DNA from: Candidatus Marinacidobacterales bacterium
Lineage (GTDB): Bacteria > Acidobacteriota > Vicinamibacteria > Marinacidobacterales > DATDRI01
Assembly (NCBI GenBank): GCA_965219415.1
Contig: CBDCNP010000002.1
Location: 4,096,001 to 4,160,000 of the forward strand
Direction of reading: 5' to 3'
Length of the DNA stretch: 64,000 nucleotides
Positions 58,875 to 64,000 of this stretch are shown here, one piece after another. The position numbers were made by a program, and so were the translations under genes. The notes below the pieces were generated by a model. It was not told the origin of the DNA. It did no database searches and was given only the letters and a program-made list of their open reading frames with translations. Position 1 is the first letter of the stretch. Each line of letters opens with the position of its first letter.

Positions 58875-59306
58875 ATGAGATGGATTAAGAAAGGTTTGAG
58901 ATTCGAGTGCCAACCAGACTGCGGTCACTGCTGCTCACAGTCAATGTTCGGCAAGGGTGACGTCGAGGGCGTCTTTTTGAGTAAGCGCGATGTGGGTCGG
59001 TTGCAGAAGGCTGGGGTTGCGTGGGCGATTGAGGAACGTGGCGACCATCGCGTTCTATCGGAGGCTTCGGGCACCTGCGTATTGCTGGATCCGAGAACGA
59101 AGGGCTGTGGGATCTACGACGTGCGGCCGACGCAGTGCCGGAACTTCCCCTTCACGCCGGGCAAAGACTCGCCAATCGCTACTCGTTCACAGTGGAACAC
59201 GGCGCGAGAGCACTGTCCTGGTATCGGTATCGGACGATACTACGACAAGCGACACATTCGAAAGTTAGTTCGGGGTCGCGCCCAGCATGGTAGCTTCCAA
59301 GTCTGA
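58875..59306 (+). CDS. YkgJ-family cysteine cluster (Zn/Fe-chelating) protein
   Basis: FECQPDCGHCC, CVLLD, CGIYDVRPTQCRNFPF, CPGIG. Confidence 0.85.
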   Translation: MRWIKKGLRFECQPDCGHCCSQSMFGKGDVEGVFLSKRDVGRLQKAGVAWAIEERGDHRVLSEASGTCVLLDPRTKGCGIYDVRPTQCRNFPFTPGKDSPIATRSQWNTAREHCPGIGIGRYYDKRHIRKLVRGRAQHGSFQV

Positions 59307-59422
59307 GGACCGTGGTAGGGTCGAGGGCTGGCGCGGTGCTCCGTAGGCGCGGCCTATCTGTTTCTCCCCGTTTCCTGTGGGAGTGGCTCACTAGCCACAC
59401 CGTAAGTCCGTTTCCAGCCCCC

Positions 59423-59915
59423 TGTGCTCCGCAAAAAGTCGATCCGGCGTTGATTGCGCGTTTTAGACCTGCCATGCTCGGCTGCTTCGTGCCGGTCGAC
59501 CTGACGACGCCACCGGCGTCTTAGGAACGTGGAGAGGCTCGCTCGTGTGACTGTTTTCGAATATCCGGTCTATTGTTCTGGACACGACGAGGTTGGTCGG
59601 AATCTCGTCGACCCACTCGACGGCTTTCTGCGCGGCAAGCGATGGCTCATCCTGGACCGCGACCAGAAGTTCACCACGGAGTTTCGGAACTTGCTCGAGC
59701 ACGCCGAAACGGACGTCTTGCGGCTGCCGCACCGTTCGCCGAATCTGAACGCTTACGTCGAAAGGTTTGTTTTGTCGATCAAGAGCGAGTGCCTGGAACG
59801 GATGATCTTCTTCAGTGAGCCATCGCTGCGCCGTACCGTCGCTGAGTTCATCCATCATTATCACGGAGAGCGCAACCATCAAGGGAACGGGTTGCTCGAA
59901 GCGGAAGAATGCGGT
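59423..59915 (+). mobile_element. composite relic: TGTGCTCCGCA end plus rve C-terminal fragment
   Basis: LILDRDQKF...[20 protein letters not shown]...ERNHQG. Confidence 0.7.
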
Positions 59916-59919
59916 CGGT

Positions 59920-61172
59920 TGTCCCTTCCATAAACTCGAGCTGTATAAGATTGGCGAACTTCCTGCAACCGGAATGCTTTGGTCGTCTTCATGTAGGACG
60001 TTTTAAGAGCCGGCGTCGGCTCTACTCAGGGGTAGAGGTGTAAGCTGGTGCGAAGTCCGGCAGCCGTTCCGAGCGGATCGGACTCAAGCAGCGCGTCGAG
60101 TGTAATAATGATGGAGACCACCGACCTTTGGAATGACTCTCACTTTGCCCATCGCCGGTGACTCTACCCGGCGAGGCTCAGGCGCGTCCTTCTCAAGCGA
60201 CAAATGAGTCCGGCACGAATGATAGTAGTCGACGTATTTGCGTAGGATTCGCTTCAGGTGCCGCTCATCAAGGACGATCACGTGGTCGAGACACTCACGT
60301 CGAATGGAGCCGATCATCCTTTCGACAAATGGATTCTGCCACGGGGAGCGCGGTGCGGTAAGGACCTGCTCCATCCCGAGACCGTCGACGCGAGTATCGA
60401 AGTACGCTCCGTAGGTCTGGTCTCGATCCCGTACCAGGTACCGAGGCGCCGTGTCCCATGGAAAAGCATCGACCATTTGCTGCGCCGTCCACTCGGCAGA
60501 AGGATGTTCGGTGACATTGAAATGAACGATACGGCGACGGTCGTGGCGAAGGACGATGAAGACGAACAGAACTCTGAAGGTTGCGGTCGGCAAAGTGAAA
60601 AAGTCGAGCGACACCAAGTCGTTTGCATGATTATCGAGAAAGCTCCGCCAAGTATGGGACGGTGGGGTGCGATGGCGAACCCTATACTTGGAGACGGCGG
60701 CCTGGGAAATGGAGATGCCTAGCTTCGCCAGCTCGCCATGCACGCGGGGAGCTCCCCAGAGAGGGTTGGCCCTGCTCATGTTCCGTATCAGCTCACATAT
60801 TTCGGGAGCGACGCCTGGTCGTCCAGGCCTACGCCGTCGGCTCTTCCAAGTCCAATATCGTCTGAACCCACAACGGTGCCAGTGGATGACCGTCTCAGGT
60901 TTCACGATGACGAGGACGCTCTCCCAGTCAGTCCAGATTCTGCGCAACAGCACCCAAAACCCGCGGTCGACATTCGAGAGCCGTGCCGTTTCACGGAACG
61001 GCGGAGGACGGCGAGCTGCTGCCGAAGAGCGACATTCTCGAGAGCCAGCTCGCGACGAGCCTTGAAGGCGGAGATGAGAGCGGGAACCAACGACGAAATC
61101 ATGCCGGCATGGTGCTGGCAGACCGGAGATTATTCAAGTTTGGTGCGCGCGGATAAATAAATAGAAGGCACA
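59920..61172 (-). mobile_element. rve-integrase (IS481-like DDE) element; transposase 60084-61102 with a frameshift/deletion at about 60985
   Basis: Ends TGTCCCTTCCAT and TGTGCCTTCTAT; LALENVALRQQL, NPLWGAPR, SLDFF, RDRD, NPFVER. Confidence 0.8.
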
Positions 61173-61280
61173 AGACGATAGCCGCCTGTTGGTCACGGTG
61201 GCCCCAACACCAACCATGTCAAAGGCTGGATCGGCGTCCTCATGAGGACGGGCACGAAACCGGAATCTAGAGCGTTTCGG

Positions 61281-61739
61281 TCACTCGGAGCTTGCCTTCG
61301 GATAGATCTTCTCCCCGTCGTAGTCTCTCATCCCGCAGAAACCGATGACCTCGAACCCATTTTCTTTCAGCAAGGCCGCGGCACGCGCGGCTCGTCCTCC
61401 GCCGTTTCAGGCGGTGAGGATGGGTTTATCCTGTGGTAGCTCGTCGAGCCGATCGGCAAGTTGGCCGATGGGAATGTTAGTGTAGCCTTCGACCGTACCC
61501 AACTCCTCCAACTCTTCGGGGTTTCGTACATCGAGGAGAAAGACCTTCGCATCATTCAGCGCTGCCGCGAGCTCCTCGCCTTTGAGCTGTGGTGCTTCGT
61601 CGATCGCGTTGGTCGCTGATTCAGCCGGCTCAACCGGCGCCGATGAGGAAGCGGGCTCCTCTTGTCCCCCGCCGTCCCCACCACCGCAGGCGAACAGCGC
61701 CGCCGCGGCTGTCGCGGGGAGCCAATAGAGTCGTTTCAT
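61281..61739 (-). CDS. rhodanese-like lipoprotein with an in-frame TGA at the active site (probable selenoprotein, 152 aa)
   Basis: GGAGG RBS; LFAC lipobox; LLDVRNPEE...NIPI...LPQDKPILTA-TGA(61407-61409)-NGGGRAARAAALLKENGF; SECIS-like hairpin follows. Confidence 0.8.
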
Positions 61740-61839
61740 GGTCACCTCCACCGCAACCTATAGCACATCTAGGCGTTCGGCTGCCGCTGGCACCGCGGGC
61801 ACAGATACCGTGAGGAATAGACGCTTGAGATCCAGACCC

Positions 61840-62052
61840 GGATATTCGAAAACAGTCGCACGAGCGAGCCCGTCGTGTCCAAAAATACAAACGAACTCAA
61901 GCTTCGCGCACCGGGCTTTCGGTTACCACCCTTCTGAGGGTGTGCCTCCTATTTATTCATCCGCGCGCACCGAACTTGATTAGTCTCCGGTCTGCCGGCT
62001 GTGCTCCGCAAAAACTCGATCCGTCGTTGATTTTGCAGTTTAGACCTGCCAG
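61840..62052. repeat. stack of mobile-element ends
   Basis: CGTCGTGTCCAAAAA (about 61872; also at 31243 and 44605), TGTGCCTCCTATTTATTCATCCGCGCGCACC (61941) and TGTGCTCCGCAAAAA (62000). Confidence 0.7.
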
Positions 62053-62225
62053 GATTGGCCGTTTCGCGGCGAACGGATGAAGTGACCCAATCGGTATGGT
62101 ATGGTCAAGTTATTGAAAACCTGGCTGACCGGCCCTCAAGATGATGGGCTTGAGTTCTGTCGTGAACCGGCCATGTTGGGGATCGGCCAGCCCGGTTCTG
62201 CTTAACTTTAACAATACCCCTGACT

Positions 62226-63452
62226 ATGCTCTGCCATATAGTCCTGCTGAGCCATTTGGCCCTTGTTCCTGCAGTATCCAGGACCCTCGAAGCCAACGAC
62301 GACTGGCCTCAATGGCGCGGTCGACAGCGCGACGGTCTTTCCCGTGATTCGAATCTACTCGACCAGTGGCCGGCCGGCGGACCGGAGCTCGTCTGGAAGG
62401 CCAGCGGGCTCGGCAATGGCTATTCGACTGTGTCGGTCGCGCGAGGCCGCATCTACACTCAGGGAGCCAGAGGTTCCCGCGAGTACGTGATCGCCCTGGA
62501 AGCGATCATGGGACGTGAGGTCTGGGCGAAGCCACATGGGCGGCGCTATCGCAACAGCCGAGGAGACGGACCGCGCGGTGCGCCGACGGTGGACGGCAAC
62601 CGGGTCTACGCACTCAGTGGAAGTGGCGATCTATCGTGCCTCGAAGCGGATACCGGAAAGATCGTCTGGTCGGTGAACCTTCTTGAGACCTTCCGCGGGC
62701 GCAATATCAACTGGGGCATCAGCGAGTCTCCCCTCGTTCTCGAGGACCGTGTCCTCGTCAACGCCGGAGCACGAAATGCCTCGATCGTGGCACTCGACAA
62801 GAGGGATGGCTCCCTACTCTGGAAAACGGCCAGCGACGAGGCAGGGTACTCCTCTGCGGTCCGAGCCAACATCAACGGTGTCGATCAGGCGGTTTTCTTC
62901 ACGGGCCAGCGTGGGGTGGGCGTTCGCATCAGTGATGGGCAAGTGCTCTGGTCATACCAACGCGTCTCCAACCGAACCGCCAACGTTGCCACACCGGTGG
63001 TGCGAGGCAACTACGTTTTCCTGTCTTCCGACTACGGTACGGGCTGTGCCCTGCTCGAGATCTCCGGGGGCGCGGAGCAAATAACAGCCCGTGAGGTCTA
63101 CTTCACCCGTGACATGCGCAACCACCACAGCAGCTCCGTTCTGGTCGGCGATACGCTCTATGGTTTCTCGAGCAGCCGTCTCCACGCTCTGAACTTTTGG
63201 ACGGGCGAGCTGGCGTGGCGTGACCGCAGCATCGGGAAGGGCTCTCTGGTCTTTGCGGACGGGCATTTGTACATCTTCAGCGAGAACGGAGTGGTGGGGC
63301 TCGTAGAGGCGACGCCGGTGGGGTACCGAGAGAAAGGTCGCTTCGAGATCCGAACCTCCAACAAGCCCACGTGGGCGCATCCGGTCGTGGCAAACGGCAC
63401 ACTCTACCTGCGCGACCAGGATACGCTTTACGCCTACGCCATCCGCAAGTGA
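62226..63452 (+). CDS. PQQ-binding-like (BamB-like) beta-propeller protein
   Basis: DWPQWRG, ELVWK...GYS, GPRGAPTV, SESPLV, YSS, TWAHPVVANGTLYLRD. Confidence 0.88.
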   Translation: MLCHIVLLSHLALVPAVSRTLEANDDWPQWRGRQRDGLSRDSNLLDQWPAGGPELVWKASGLGNGYSTVSVARGRIYTQGARGSREYVIALEAIMGREVWAKPHGRRYRNSRGDGPRGAPTVDGNRVYALSGSGDLSCLEADTGKIVWSVNLLETFRGRNINWGISESPLVLEDRVLVNAGARNASIVALDKRDGSLLWKTASDEAGYSSAVRANINGVDQAVFFTGQRGVGVRISDGQVLWSYQRVSNRTANVATPVVRGNYVFLSSDYGTGCALLEISGGAEQITAREVYFTRDMRNHHSSSVLVGDTLYGFSSSRLHALNFWTGELAWRDRSIGKGSLVFADGHLYIFSENGVVGLVEATPVGYREKGRFEIRTSNKPTWAHPVVANGTLYLRDQDTLYAYAIRK

Positions 63453-63479
63453 CTTGCTGGCACGGGTCGATATTCCTAA

Positions 63480-63689
63480 AGGTCGGTGGTCTCCATCATC
63501 ATCACACTCGACGCGCTGCTTGAGTCTGATCCGCTCGGAACGGCTGCGGGACTCCGCACCAGGTTACACCTCTGGCCCCTGAGTAGAGCCGACGCCGGCT
63601 CTTAAAACGTCCTACATGAAGACGACCAAAGCATCCTGGTTGCAGGCAGTTCGCCAATCTCATACAGATCGAGTTTATGGAAGGGACCA
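63480..63689 (+). mobile_element. right-end relic of the 59920-61172 element family
   Basis: VGGLHHHHTRRAA* plus about 165 nt matching the reverse complement of 59920-60085. Confidence 0.8.
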
Positions 63690-64000
63690 TCGGTAATCGT
63701 GATGGAGTGCACCAGGGATCGGCCTCGAGGCAACGGTGCACTAGGCAGCGTTTTGGTCTACCCGGATCGTCTCCGATCACCCCGGGCTGCGGCGCCTCGG
63801 CCGCTGAGTTCACGGGGTGAGACAAGGAAGGCTAGCCATGAAAATGGTTGTGACGGTATCTCTGTTGTTTCTTCTCGTTGCTGATGCGTTGATTGCCCAA
63901 GCTCAATCCAAAGGGGACGAGACGGACCCCTTCGTGGGGGCAACCATCATCGGTGAGAAGCAAGTGACCGCAGAGATCAGAGTTACCGACATTCCCGAGG

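What the first reader, a model, noticed from the sequence alone, without database searches (positions are those of the whole stretch)
61281..61739. Hidden selenoprotein: lipid-anchored rhodanese with UGA at the catalytic position and a SECIS-like hairpin
Seen: the ORF track stops at TGA 61407-61409, but the same frame stays open for 41 more codons that complete the rhodanese fold (ILTA-*-NGGGRAARAAALLKENGF...). Seen: 21 nt after the UGA is the loop of a GC stem, GCCGCG-CGUGC-CGCGGC, with GU near the start of the loop. Established: the TGA falls where the rhodanese active-loop Cys (CxxGxR) sits, the hairpin geometry fits bacterial SECIS elements, and Sec-containing rhodaneses are known. Inference: this is a Sec sulfur/selenium-transferase exported as a lipoprotein (LFAC lipobox, then an acidic Pro/Ser/Ala linker). 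An extracytoplasmic lipid-anchored selenoenzyme in this lineage would be unusual, and standard gene callers would truncate it.
Basis: partly seen in the sequence, partly recalled or inferred. Interest (0 to 1): 0.88.

Follow-up and report, generated by a model that had tools for sequence, protein, structure and literature searches.

The report
Lipid-anchored selenocysteine rhodanese on mobile cassette
This is a real but mis-called gene for a small exported, lipid-anchored sulfur-transfer enzyme that uses selenocysteine at its active site; it belongs to a selenoprotein class already catalogued, and this copy sits between two insertion-sequence ends and recurs nearly unchanged in related genomes.

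Summary
On the minus strand, 61739-61281 encodes a 152-aa rhodanese with an in-frame TGA (61409-61407) at the catalytic-Cys column, 41 more codons, and a GC hairpin with loop CGUGC 21 nt downstream.

It is a selenoprotein.
- The genome has tRNA-Sec, SelA, SelB and a Sec-containing SelD.
- All 82 homologous sites examined carry TGA there, and so do 23 of 23 strong matches in a 301-genome phylum sample.
- Cys-form homologues exist.
- dN/dS after the TGA is 0.06-0.22.
- Synonymous sites in the hairpin codons are frozen.
- Contigs from three RNA libraries span the TGA unchanged.
- A lipoprotein signal is kept in the aligned orthologues.

Sec-rhodaneses with a UxxG motif are already catalogued, so this is a new member of a known kind.

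Three details appear new:
- the lipid anchor;
- a conserved second Cys, 24 residues after Sec;
- the carriage: a ~0.7-kb cassette between two IS ends, 98.4% identical in a genome of another family and present in at least six full-length copies in a third.

The biochemical role is inferred, not shown.

The parts
61281..61739 (-). Complete CDS of the selenoprotein: 152 codons including Sec111, plus the terminal TGA at 61283-61281
   Evidence: Pfam Rhodanese 48.7 bits.
61745..61749 (-). Shine-Dalgarno-like GGAGG, 5 nt before the ATG
   Evidence: Read directly. Function is inferred.
61686..61739 (-). Lipoprotein signal peptide MKRLYWLPATAAAALFA-C, with lipobox LFAC and the lipidated Cys18
   Evidence: The lipobox Cys is present in all 11 aligned orthologues; one is misaligned by two columns. 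LspA and Lgt are in the genome.
61593..61685 (-). Gly/Pro/Ser/Ala/Glu-rich tether, residues 19-49, predicted disordered
   Evidence: AF2 pLDDT 42-60 over residues 1-50. Length and sequence vary between orthologues.
61299..61592 (-). Single rhodanese domain, about residues 50-147
   Evidence: pLDDT 90-97 for residues 51-140, including the helix at 115-126 and the strand at 131-136 that follow Sec111. Foldseek matches to rhodanese domains.
61407..61409 (-). UGA read as selenocysteine (Sec111), first residue of the active-site loop U-N-G-G-G-R
   Evidence: Aligned to the catalytic Cys of the rhodanese domain of 5ve3. TGA at 82 of 82 homologous sites. Cys in P0012, P0013, P0019 and P0023.
61375..61391 (-). 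SECIS-like hairpin: 6-bp GC stem and loop CGUGC, stem starting 16 nt after the UGA
   Evidence: Synonymous-site freeze. RNAalifold consensus of a 5-bp core. CG/UG/UA at pair 27:39. Same geometry and loop in a second Sec-rhodanese of the genome.
61335..61337 (-). Conserved Cys135 in the GFCG motif, at the end of the last beta-strand
   Evidence: Invariant in the 11 aligned lipoprotein orthologues. Present in 12 of 15 more distant exported Cys-form homologues read. A role as partner of Sec111 is inferred.
61174..61940 (.). 767-bp segment between two inward-facing IS ends. Positions 61173-61874 recur as a cassette in other genomes.
   Evidence: 98.4% nucleotide identity over 702 bp in G022; 94% over 616 bp in G026. 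Single full copy in the own genome, plus a 112-bp relic on C2.
59919..61173 (-). IS element, with many full and partial copies in the genome. Its transposase has an rve_3 integrase core.
61114..61172 (.). Inner IS end; left arm of a 59-nt inverted repeat, 90% complementary
61941..61999 (.). Right arm of the same inverted repeat; start of the IS-derived element at 61941-63687

Best explanation
The locus encodes a genuine selenoprotein: a 152-residue single-domain rhodanese (sulfurtransferase fold) made as a lipoprotein precursor.

How it is made:
- Translation starts at 61739.
- When the ribosome reaches UGA 61409-61407, the hairpin at 61391-61375 (6-bp GC stem, loop CGUGC) is taken to recruit SelB carrying Sec-tRNA(Sec). 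Selenocysteine is then inserted, and the last 41 codons are translated. These encode the active-site loop U-N-G-G-G-R, the following helix and the last beta-strand.
- The signal peptide directs export. Cys18 of the LFAC lipobox is lipidated by Lgt and LspA.
- The domain then hangs on a roughly 30-residue flexible tether at a membrane facing the periplasm.

What it probably does (inferred):
- Sec111 acts as the acceptor of sulfane sulfur, or of selenium, forming a Se-S or Se-Se intermediate that is passed on.
- The conserved Cys135 is a possible resolving partner.

This particular copy:
- It is an intact cassette of about 0.7 kb lying between two inward-facing ends of an IS family.
- It was probably acquired horizontally from another family of the same order.

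What is shown: the gene structure, Sec decoding capacity, conservation, fold and exported character.
What is inferred: SelB binding, lipidation, the chemistry, and the direction of transfer.
For: Sec machinery in the genome:
- tRNA-Sec at 69.7 bits, above Rfam's cut-off; ARAGORN calls SeC with anticodon tca.
- SelB wing domain 58.5 bits.
- SelA 475.8 bits.
- SelD 328 bits, itself with one in-frame TGA in the motif CAGU.

Conservation of the TGA:
- In 41 order-level genomes, 55 matches reach E<=1e-20. Of these, 53 contain TGA. The other 2 are N-terminal fragments that stop before the column.
- 54 of 54 sites in 36 of 39 named MAG loci carry TGA.
- 23 of 23 matches in 22 of 301 phylum-wide genomes carry TGA.

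Sec/Cys pair:
- P0012, P0013, P0019 and P0023 are full-length homologues, 43-59% identical. They have Cys in ILTAC-N-x-x-x-R and the same C-terminus.

The downstream frame is translated:
- dN/dS is 0.06-0.22 over the 36 codons after the UGA. Upstream it is 0.07-0.35.

RNA element:
- Synonymous freeze at codons +6 to +10.
- RNAalifold consensus hairpin.
- Pair 27:39 is CG in 42, UG in 2 and UA in 2 sequences.
- The second Sec-rhodanese of this genome (29% identical; YCTU motif) has a different 6-bp stem, the same CGUGC loop and the same 15-nt spacer. Three stem pairs are exchanged on both sides.

Fold:
- pLDDT is 90-97 across residues 51-140.
- Best Foldseek matches are rhodanese domains.
- The catalytic Cys aligns with the U.

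Lipoprotein:
- All 11 aligned orthologues have a basic n-region, a hydrophobic stretch and [AG]-C followed by Gly-rich sequence, although the signal sequences themselves differ.
- LspA 148.6 bits and Lgt 183.9 bits are present.

Reads:
- RNA-library contigs from two studies cover 61257-61733 (X17), 61257-61736 (X18) and 61286-61674 (X19). A DNA run also covers the site.
- All bridge the TGA, with no difference listed at 61407-61409.

Gene callers do truncate it:
- Many database proteins of this family, including the six closest hits (107-110 aa), cover only the N-terminal 40-70% of the query. The five such proteins read (P0002, P0058, P0150, P0172, P0221) all end at ...LTA.
Against: - No direct evidence of selenium in the protein.
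- Thermodynamic folding of the single sequence does not single out the hairpin (z = +1.08; pair probability 0.03 in a 63-nt context).
- Covariation is thin. Four of 7 pairs never vary, the 7th pair is unpaired in 32 of 46 sequences, and 84 of 500 shuffles reach the observed number of doubly changed pairs.
- No Rfam family matches.
- The RNA-library contigs are a 9-nt-shorter variant about 95% alike, so they come from a relative's copy. Contigs in RNA libraries do not prove transcription.
- Some copies of the cassette elsewhere are decayed: P0008 and P0009 are frameshifted, and there are fragments in G026 and on C2. This copy could therefore be a recent passenger that is not used.
- No promoter-like or terminator-like site was found in 61150-61960.
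- No gene neighbourhood is conserved across lineages that would fix the substrate.
Confidence: 0.88

Rival explanations
1. The TGA is a true stop. The gene is a truncated 110-residue rhodanese remnant (pseudogene), and the downstream frame is open by chance or belongs to something else.
For: - Table-11 ORF calling stops at 61407.
- Public gene calls of the family are truncated there.
- The copy lies in an IS-dense region.
Against: - The truncated product would lack the active-site loop, a helix and a strand of the fold.
- The TGA and the downstream frame are kept in 82 of 82 sites. These span sequences only about 50% identical and other classes of the phylum.
- dN/dS downstream is 0.06-0.22.
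- Cys-form homologues run through the same column.
Confidence: 0.03
2. UGA is read through as a standard amino acid. This could be reassignment of TGA, or near-cognate or Cys insertion, without selenocysteine.
For: - Read-through of some kind is required by the conservation data.
- The data do not by themselves identify the residue inserted.
Against: - The same gene ends with TGA here and in many orthologues (rows with '2 TGA'), so TGA is still a stop in these genomes.
- A complete selABCD set is present, and SelD itself has TGA at its known Sec/Cys position.
- A conserved hairpin sits at the distance expected of a bacterial SECIS.
Confidence: 0.04
3. The family is a real selenoprotein, but this window's copy is an unused passenger. 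It would be a recently transposed cassette, not expressed or not useful in this host, on its way to decay.
For: - It is bracketed by IS ends.
- It was not found in the two same-genus genomes, and was found in only 1 of 5 other same-family genomes searched.
- Decayed copies exist elsewhere.
- No promoter-like site was found.
Against: - The ORF, UGA, hairpin and lipobox are all intact.
- Between cassette copies 6% apart in nucleotides, there are 0 non-synonymous and 2 synonymous changes downstream of the UGA. Upstream dN/dS is 0.17-0.21.
- About 130 bp upstream of the ATG travel with the cassette.
- Near-identical variants appear in RNA libraries of two studies.
Confidence: 0.15
4. On function: it handles selenium rather than sulfur. 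It would be a periplasmic perselenide carrier that captures or detoxifies selenite-derived selenium and feeds the cell's selenium pathways (Sec, selenoneine).
For: - In one family of relatives, a tandem pair of genes (a signal-less Sec-rhodanese paralogue followed by the lipoprotein orthologue) lies beside senA (485.6 bits, cut-off 420) and senB (403.7 bits, cut-off 300).
- The own genome has senA and senB (491 and 371 bits).
- A selenium-substituted rhodanese as a selenium-delivery protein, and a rhodanese-like lipoprotein ExtH linked to selenite uptake, are in the literature. I saw these only as reference titles.
Against: - The sen adjacency is confined to one closely related clade, where SenA is 77-100% identical, and the genes are convergent rather than co-oriented.
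- It was not found in 14 of 14 loci from the other lineages, in 15 of 15 mobile-cassette loci, or in the window.
- The nearest solved relatives all handle sulfur: persulfide reductases, PRF, Sud.
Confidence: 0.3

Closest known systems
Sec-containing 'rhodanese-related sulfurtransferase' selenoproteins: forms 2 and 4 with motif UxxG in the 2026 review PMC13188914. They were first found by bSECISearch (Zhang & Gladyshev 2005) and in the Sargasso Sea metagenome (PMC1088965).
   Same: - PF00581 single domain.
- Sec replaces the catalytic Cys.
- Motif U-x-x-G, here U-N-G-G.
- Predicted by the same logic of a Sec/Cys pair plus a SECIS.
   Different: - I could not fetch the exemplar sequences (MBM9537886.1, MCY3690685.1), so identity with either form is untested.
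- Neither review mentions a lipoprotein, a signal peptide or Acidobacteria for these forms. 'lipoprotein' and 'acidobacteri' have 0 occurrences in both. 'signal peptide' has 0 in both. 'periplasm' has 0 in the 2026 review and occurs twice in the 2022 review, in passages about selenite reduction.
- I read only the passages found by term search.
NCBIfam NF041203 rhodanese_LYCAU, a 'rhodanese-related (seleno)protein' (CxU form)
   Same: - Rhodanese selenoprotein.
- A gene with that form's CxU motif (YCTU) is also in this genome (C1, near 1155999-1156325). I did not score it against NF041203.
- That gene also has a lipoprotein-type signal (...LLLAAAC) and a hairpin with the same spacing and loop.
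   Different: - The window protein scores 27 bits against a cut-off of 115.
- Sec is at the catalytic column itself, not two residues after a Cys.
Periplasmic single-domain rhodaneses: PspE (E. coli) and Sud, the polysulfide-sulfur transferase of Wolinella (1qxn)
   Same: - Exported, roughly 100-residue rhodanese domain with a 6-residue active-site loop.
- Weak sequence or fold matches: PspE 26.5 bits, 2jtq and 1qxn.
   Different: - Cys rather than Sec.
- Soluble rather than lipid-anchored (recalled).
- Below the PspE cut-off of 102.
- From my reading of the alignments, they lack the GFCG...YPK C-terminus.
Rhodanese domains of CoA-disulfide reductase-RHD (3icr), NADH-dependent persulfide reductase (3nta, 4ocg) and persulfide dioxygenase-rhodanese fusion PRF (5ve3)
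   Same: Best sequence and fold matches: phmmer E 2.7e-11 to 1.4e-10; Foldseek E about 1e-6, rmsd 1.3-1.7 Å over 74-98 alignment columns, 35-43% identity. The active-site Cys aligns with the U in the 5ve3 alignment.
   Different: - Those are cytoplasmic fusion domains with Cys.
- This is a stand-alone exported lipoprotein with Sec.
ExtH, the 'rhodanese-like lipoprotein' of Geobacter sulfurreducens (Jahan et al. 2019). I saw it only as a reference title, and as a '49-kDa rhodanese-like protein' in PMC5877670.
   Same: A rhodanese-like lipoprotein linked in its title to selenite uptake.
   Different: - 49 kDa, against 16 kDa here.
- Not stated to contain Sec in the passages I read.
- No sequence comparison was made.

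Membership tests
Bacterial selenoprotein gene (Sec decoded at UGA) | In-frame UGA conserved in homologues, with conserved coding sequence downstream | tested here: met
   TGA at 82 of 82 sites and in 23 of 23 phylum-sample matches. dN/dS downstream is 0.06-0.22.
Bacterial selenoprotein gene (Sec decoded at UGA) | Homologues with Cys at the same column (Sec/Cys pair) | tested here: met
   P0012, P0013, P0019 and P0023 read ...ILTAC-N-x-x-x-R... and have the same C-terminus.
Bacterial selenoprotein gene (Sec decoded at UGA) | SECIS stem-loop just downstream of the UGA. The bSECISearch criteria as I recall them: loop 16-37 nt from the UGA, G among the first loop bases, stable stem. | tested here: met
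   The loop CGUGC starts 21 nt after the UGA and the hairpin energy is -10.9 kcal/mol. It is conserved at synonymous sites and is the RNAalifold consensus. Covariation is weak, there is no Rfam hit, and bSECISearch itself was not available.
Bacterial selenoprotein gene (Sec decoded at UGA) | Genome encodes selA, selB, selC and selD | tested here: met
   all above the curated cut-offs.
Bacterial selenoprotein gene (Sec decoded at UGA) | Selenium actually incorporated | not testable with these tools
   Needs 75Se labelling or mass spectrometry.
Rhodanese / sulfurtransferase (PF00581) | Domain match above the gathering score, and the rhodanese alpha/beta fold | tested here: met
   48.7 bits against 22.2. 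AF2 pLDDT 90-97. Foldseek probability 1.00 to rhodanese domains.
Rhodanese / sulfurtransferase (PF00581) | Six-residue active-site loop C-x4-R after the central strand. By recall, this is the sulfurtransferase type, not the 7-residue Cdc25 type. | tested here: met
   U-N-G-G-G-R at the end of strand 107-111, aligned to C-R-A-G-G-R of 5ve3.
Rhodanese / sulfurtransferase (PF00581) | Sulfane-sulfur transfer activity | not testable with these tools
   Needs an enzyme assay.
Catalogued Sec-rhodanese 'UxxG' forms 2 and 4 | Motif UxxG in a PF00581 protein | tested here: met
   U-N-G-G; definition taken from the table in PMC13188914.
Catalogued Sec-rhodanese 'UxxG' forms 2 and 4 | Sequence relatedness to the exemplar records | not tested
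NCBIfam NF041203 rhodanese_LYCAU | Score above 115 bits; CxU motif | tested here: not met
   27 bits; the motif here is A-U-N.
PspE (NF007627 / TIGR02981) | Score above the curated cut-off | tested here: not met
   26.5 against 102 bits, and 18.1 against 126.3 bits.
Bacterial lipoprotein | Basic n-region, hydrophobic h-region, and a lipobox ending in an invariant Cys near residues 15-25 | tested here: met
   MKR / LYWLPATAAAALF / LFA-C18. The equivalent Cys is in all 11 aligned orthologues despite divergent signal sequences. No dedicated predictor was available; the lipobox rule was applied from recall.
Bacterial lipoprotein | Lgt and LspA present | tested here: met
Bacterial lipoprotein | N-terminal acylation, and which membrane it sits in | not testable with these tools
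   Needs labelling, globomycin treatment or fractionation.
Composite transposon / IS-borne cassette | Passenger flanked by two copies of one IS family | tested here: met
   59-nt inverted arms, 90% complementary, at 61114-61172 and 61941-61999. The outer ends at 59919 and 63687 are also inverted copies of each other.
Composite transposon / IS-borne cassette | Target-site duplication at the outer ends; movement as one unit | tested here: inconclusive
   No clear direct repeat at 59918/63688. In other genomes the shared block is the 0.6-0.7-kb cassette with only one or other IS end attached.

The most novel reading that the evidence does not exclude
A self-contained selenoprotein cassette, with promoter region, lipoprotein signal, Sec codon and SECIS all within about 0.7 kb, is being moved and amplified by an IS family among marine or sponge-associated Vicinamibacteria. 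One 10-Mb genome holds at least six full-length copies.

The product would be a periplasmic selenol/thiol enzyme (Sec111 with Cys135) that traffics selenium or sulfane sulfur at the cell envelope, feeding or protecting a selenium-rich metabolism (Sec-SelD, selenoneine genes senA and senB). This would be a first case of IS-driven spread and dosage increase of a selenoprotein gene, and a new two-residue U...C chemistry within the rhodanese fold.
Probability: 0.2. Interest if true: 0.65.

Novelty: new member of a known kind. Interest (0 to 1): 0.42.

Why it matters
- Annotation. Standard gene callers cut this family at the UGA. The six closest database entries are 107-110 aa and cover only the first 70% of the protein, and the truncated entries I read stop at ...LTA. 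No NCBIfam model reaches its cut-off. An exported selenoenzyme found in 22 of 301 sampled Acidobacteriota genomes is therefore largely invisible in annotation.
- Biochemistry. It offers a compact natural Sec/Cys pair in the rhodanese fold with a very small, well-defined SECIS. That is useful for comparing selenol and thiol persulfide chemistry, and for testing what a minimal SelB-binding hairpin needs.
- Evolution. The IS-flanked, multi-copy cassette shows that a selenoprotein gene can travel as a unit between hosts that already decode Sec.

Tried and rejected
- Rfam scan of 61150-61850 at E<=10 gave only a chance miRNA hit (E = 9.1) and no SECIS family.
- Folding 73 nt around the UGA gave no signal (z = +1.08).
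- Promoter and terminator scans of 61150-61960 found nothing.
- A search for a gene neighbourhood shared between divergent lineages found none beyond sub-clades. The senA/senB adjacency is confined to one family, so I did not use it as the main functional argument.
- A target-site duplication at the outer IS ends was not found.
- The HMM search of 1.84 billion representatives was dominated by multi-domain rhodaneses. I used it only to pick single-domain hits, reading 18 of the 150 listed.
- I considered genetic-code reassignment of TGA. I rejected it because the gene's own terminator is TGA.
- I considered sequencing error at the TGA. I rejected it because of 82 of 82 conserved sites in independent assemblies and the laid contigs.
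- I could not measure the Sec111-Cys135 distance, because the model's coordinates are not returned. Their proximity is inferred from strand topology only.
- I could not compare with the catalogue exemplars MBM9537886.1 and MCY3690685.1.
- Supplementary files of the papers were not requested. They may list Sec-rhodanese sequences and their taxa.
- The count of 39 of 41 genomes with any match includes weak generic rhodanese hits. The family proper (E<=1e-20) is in 29 of 41. The unpublished genome G007 enters only this tally, as one of the 12 without the family; no other claim rests on it.
Full report
**1. What is in the sequence**

The gene is on the minus strand.
- ATG is at 61739-61737, preceded by GGAGG five bases upstream.
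- Codon 111 is TGA (61409-61407).
- The frame stays open for exactly 41 more codons and ends at a second TGA (61283-61281).
- Read through, the product is 152 residues: a signal peptide MKRLYWLPATAAAALFA-C18, a Gly/Pro/Ser/Ala/Glu-rich stretch to about residue 49, then one rhodanese domain.
- Pfam's Rhodanese model matches at 48.7 bits (cut-off 22.2) across the TGA.
- In phmmer alignments to solved structures, the TGA position falls on the catalytic Cys of the rhodanese domain of the persulfide dioxygenase-rhodanese fusion 5ve3.
- The hairpin GCCGCG-CGUGC-CGCGGC is at 61391-61375, with its loop 21 nt after the UGA.

**2. Can the organism decode Sec?**

Yes. The 8.05-Mb assembly that holds the window has all four components.
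- tRNA-Sec: Rfam 69.7 bits, over the cut-off. ARAGORN calls SeC with anticodon tca.
- SelB with its wing-3 domain (58.5 bits).
- SelA (475.8 bits).
- SelD (328.3 bits), which itself carries one in-frame TGA in the motif CAGU.

TGA is still a stop in this genome. The rhodanese gene itself ends in TGA here and in many orthologues.

**3. Comparative evidence**

Order-level relatives (41 genomes):
- 29 have a match at E<=1e-20.
- Of the 55 such matches, 53 contain an in-frame TGA.
- The other two are N-terminal fragments that end before the column.

Named MAG records:
- A pattern scan of 185,579 species genomes returned 39 loci.
- 37 are labelled Acidobacteriota or Acidobacteria, or one of its groups (Vicinamibacteria, Vicinamibacteraceae, 'Candidatus Marinacidobacterales', Luteitalea, Bryobacterales). 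The other two are labelled only 'Candidatus Marinacidobacterium sp.' and 'Candidatus Spongiisocius variivorans'.
- 36 of the 39 hold the active-site region. All 54 sites there are TGA and none is Cys.

Totals and phylum sample:
- Over all loci I counted 82 sites, 46 of them distinct over 60 nt, and all are TGA.
- In an even sample of 301 genomes of the phylum, 22 genomes in 12 of 186 genera have a match at E<=1e-20. All 23 matches carry TGA.

Cys forms exist outside this set.
- P0012, P0013, P0019 and P0023 are full-length proteins, 43-59% identical.
- They read ...ILTAC-N-x-x-x-R-A-A-R... and share the C-terminus GFCGL..Y.G.K.YPK.
- They have ordinary cleavable-type signal peptides.
- A wider set of exported single-domain Cys-rhodaneses shares the ...CG...YPK ending (I read 18 of the 150 listed hits).

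The frame after the UGA is under purifying selection as strong as before it. dN/dS is 0.06-0.22 over 36 codons downstream, against 0.07-0.35 over 57 codons upstream, in the pairs where dS could be estimated.

**4. The RNA element**

Synonymous-site freeze (27 sequences):
- Codons +6 to +10 after the UGA (Ala-Ala-Arg-Ala-Ala) are almost fixed at the nucleotide level. The counts are GCC 26/27, GCG 27/27, CGU 24/26, GCC 27/27 and GCG 27/27.
- Other invariant Gly, Arg, Leu, Val and Pro codons of the same gene use three to six synonymous codons (entropy 1.3-2.1 bit).
- This freeze coincides exactly with the hairpin.

Consensus structure:
- RNAalifold on 46 distinct sequences returns the 5-bp core and the 5-nt loop as the only consensus structure.

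Covariation is thin and I do not overstate it.
- One core pair shows CG 42, UG 2, UA 2.
- The 7th pair shows GC 8, AU 4, CG 2 and is unpaired in 32 sequences.
- Four of 7 pairs never vary.
- The covariation score (0.051 against 0.035 ± 0.006) is reached by 5 of 500 shuffles.
- The count of doubly changed pairs is reached by 84 of 500 shuffles.

A stronger comparison comes from inside the genome.
- A second Sec-rhodanese on contig C1 is only 29% identical. It has motif YCTU and also a lipoprotein-type signal.
- It has a hairpin with the same 15-nt spacer, a 6-bp stem and the same loop CGUGC.
- Its stem sequence is different: three pairs are exchanged on both sides.

Single-sequence thermodynamics is not decisive.
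- The hairpin is not in the MFE of 73 nt (z = +1.08).
- Its pair probability is 0.03 in 63 nt, because the bases next to the UGA compete for pairing.
- With the 12 nt next to the UGA left out, the probability is 0.95-1.0 here, and above 0.5 in 40 of 46 sequences. The ribosome would cover those bases while paused at the UGA; that point is my inference.
- Rfam has no matching family.

**5. Protein anatomy**

- The AlphaFold2 model, built with the 11-sequence alignment, gives pLDDT 90-97 for residues 51-140.
- It has strand 107-111 ending at Sec111, helix 115-126 and strand 131-136. The N-terminal 49 residues are disordered.
- The 41 codons after the UGA therefore supply the active-site loop, a helix and a strand. 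A product stopped at the UGA could not fold as a rhodanese.
- Foldseek's best PDB matches are rhodanese domains of CoADR-RHD (3icr), persulfide reductase (3nta, 4ocg) and PRF (5ve3), plus small stand-alone rhodaneses. Sud (1qxn) ranks lower.
- The loop U-N-G-G-G-R has the six-residue length of sulfurtransferases. That classification is recalled, not tested.
- Cys135 (GFCG) is invariant in the 11 aligned lipoprotein orthologues. It is present in 12 of 15 more distant exported homologues I read.
- Cys135 ends the strand next to the one that ends in Sec111, so a Sec-Cys pair is plausible. I could not measure the distance.

**6. Export and anchoring**

- All 11 orthologues aligned begin with a basic n-region, a hydrophobic run and [A/G]-C followed by Gly-rich sequence, although the signal sequences are otherwise dissimilar.
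- LspA and Lgt are present and adjacent in the genome.
- In one family of relatives, a 113-residue paralogue without a signal peptide, also with TGA, sits directly upstream.

**7. Reads**

- Contigs from RNA libraries of two studies cover 61257-61733 (X17), 61257-61736 (X18) and 61286-61674 (X19). A DNA run (X1) covers 61174-61592.
- All bridge the TGA, and no difference is listed at 61407-61409.
- They are a 9-nt-shorter variant of the cassette, so they come from a relative's copy.
- Contigs in an RNA library do not prove transcription.

**8. Genomic setting**

- The gene lies in an IS-dense region.
- 59919-61173 is an IS with several full-length and many partial copies in the genome. Its transposase has an rve_3 core.
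- Its inner end (61114-61172) is repeated in inverted orientation at 61941-61999: 59 nt, 90% complementary.
- That repeat opens a second IS-derived element (61941-63687). Its outer end mirrors 59919 onward, and its interior encodes a BamB-like PQQ propeller instead of a transposase. The stretch 61941-63999 is duplicated at 99.3% elsewhere in the genome.
- The 767 bp between the two ends hold only the rhodanese gene.
- The block 61173-61874 is 98.4% identical in G022, a genome of another family. G022 also has its own 63%-identical orthologue, while its congener G008 has only the native one.
- G026 has six full-length copies plus fragments. G003 and G018 have two each.
- The two same-genus genomes, and four of the five other same-family genomes searched, gave no match at E<=1e-20.
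- Decayed copies exist.
- This pattern points to horizontal spread of a small cassette along with this IS family. Whether the whole IS-cassette-IS unit transposes is open, because no target duplication was seen.

**9. Function**

- No neighbourhood is conserved across lineages.
- In one family, the tandem pair of the signal-less paralogue and the lipoprotein orthologue is flanked by a CehA/McbA-TolB-like gene and by convergent senA and senB. These are the selenoneine genes, and both are above NCBIfam's cut-offs.
- The own genome has senA and senB elsewhere.
- This is a lead towards selenium trafficking and no more.
- My best reading is a periplasm-facing, membrane-tethered carrier or transferase of sulfane sulfur. 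I give about 0.3 to selenium as the substrate. Sec is the nucleophile, and Cys135 may act as a resolving residue.

**10. What is known**

- Sec-containing rhodanese-related sulfurtransferases have been catalogued since 2005 (PMC1088965, table passage; PMC1976440, passages).
- The 2026 review lists five forms, two with motif UxxG (PMC13188914, table passages).
- The two reviews have no occurrence of 'lipoprotein', 'Acidobacteri' or 'signal peptide' in their main text. 'periplasm' is absent from the 2026 review and occurs only in selenite-reduction passages of the 2022 one.
- My two further searches found no description of this lipoprotein form: selenoprotein + Acidobacteria + sponge gave 1 unrelated paper, and selenocysteine + rhodanese + lipoprotein gave 8 papers, none on it by title or abstract.
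- Supplements were not seen.

Verdict: a real selenoprotein, correctly spotted. It is a new member of a known kind, with an undescribed lipid-anchored architecture and an unusual mobile, multi-copy carriage.

Noticed in passing
window 61941-63687 (ORF 62226-63452, + strand): An element with the same terminal sequences as the neighbouring IS, but carrying a 408-aa BamB-like PQQ beta-propeller gene (PF13360, 119.5 bits) instead of a transposase. The stretch 61941-63999 is duplicated at 99.3% at G000:C3:763409-765467. It looks like an IS-derived passenger-carrying element.
   Followed up: partly
G000:C1:1155999-1156325 (locus L021): A second Sec-rhodanese in the same genome, with a lipoprotein-type signal (...LLLAAAC) and motif YCTU (the CxU motif of the LYCAU form). 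Its downstream hairpin has the same spacer, stem length and CGUGC loop as the window gene, but a different stem sequence.
   Followed up: partly
G000:C3:3889655-3890587 (locus L013): SelD is itself a selenoprotein (in-frame TGA in ...TCAGUASK...). The hairpins downstream of its UGA look different from the rhodanese type.
   Followed up: partly
G000:C1:227973-230190 (L080, L088); L060:3439-5708 and the related loci L034-L040 and L057-L078: senA and senB (selenoneine synthase and selenosugar synthase), above NCBIfam cut-offs, are present in the own genome. In one family of relatives they lie directly beside the tandem pair of Sec-rhodaneses.
   Followed up: partly
G000:C2:35425-35553 (L019); proteins P0008 and P0009: Relics of the cassette. 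On contig C2 a 112-bp stretch is 90% identical at the nucleotide level and matches the linker and domain start (residues 28-70 of P0001). Frameshifted full-length copies appear in public gene calls.
   Followed up: no
window 59298-61173: A dense mosaic of repeats: at least three different repeat families, each with tens of partial copies across contigs C2 and C3.
   Followed up: no
L029:1257-1316 region, L053:3595 and the short paralogues in L034-L040: Signal-less Sec-rhodanese paralogues of 113-115 aa lie next to the lipoprotein form. Most have Ser in place of the conserved Cys135 (GFSG); a few have Cys.
   Followed up: partly
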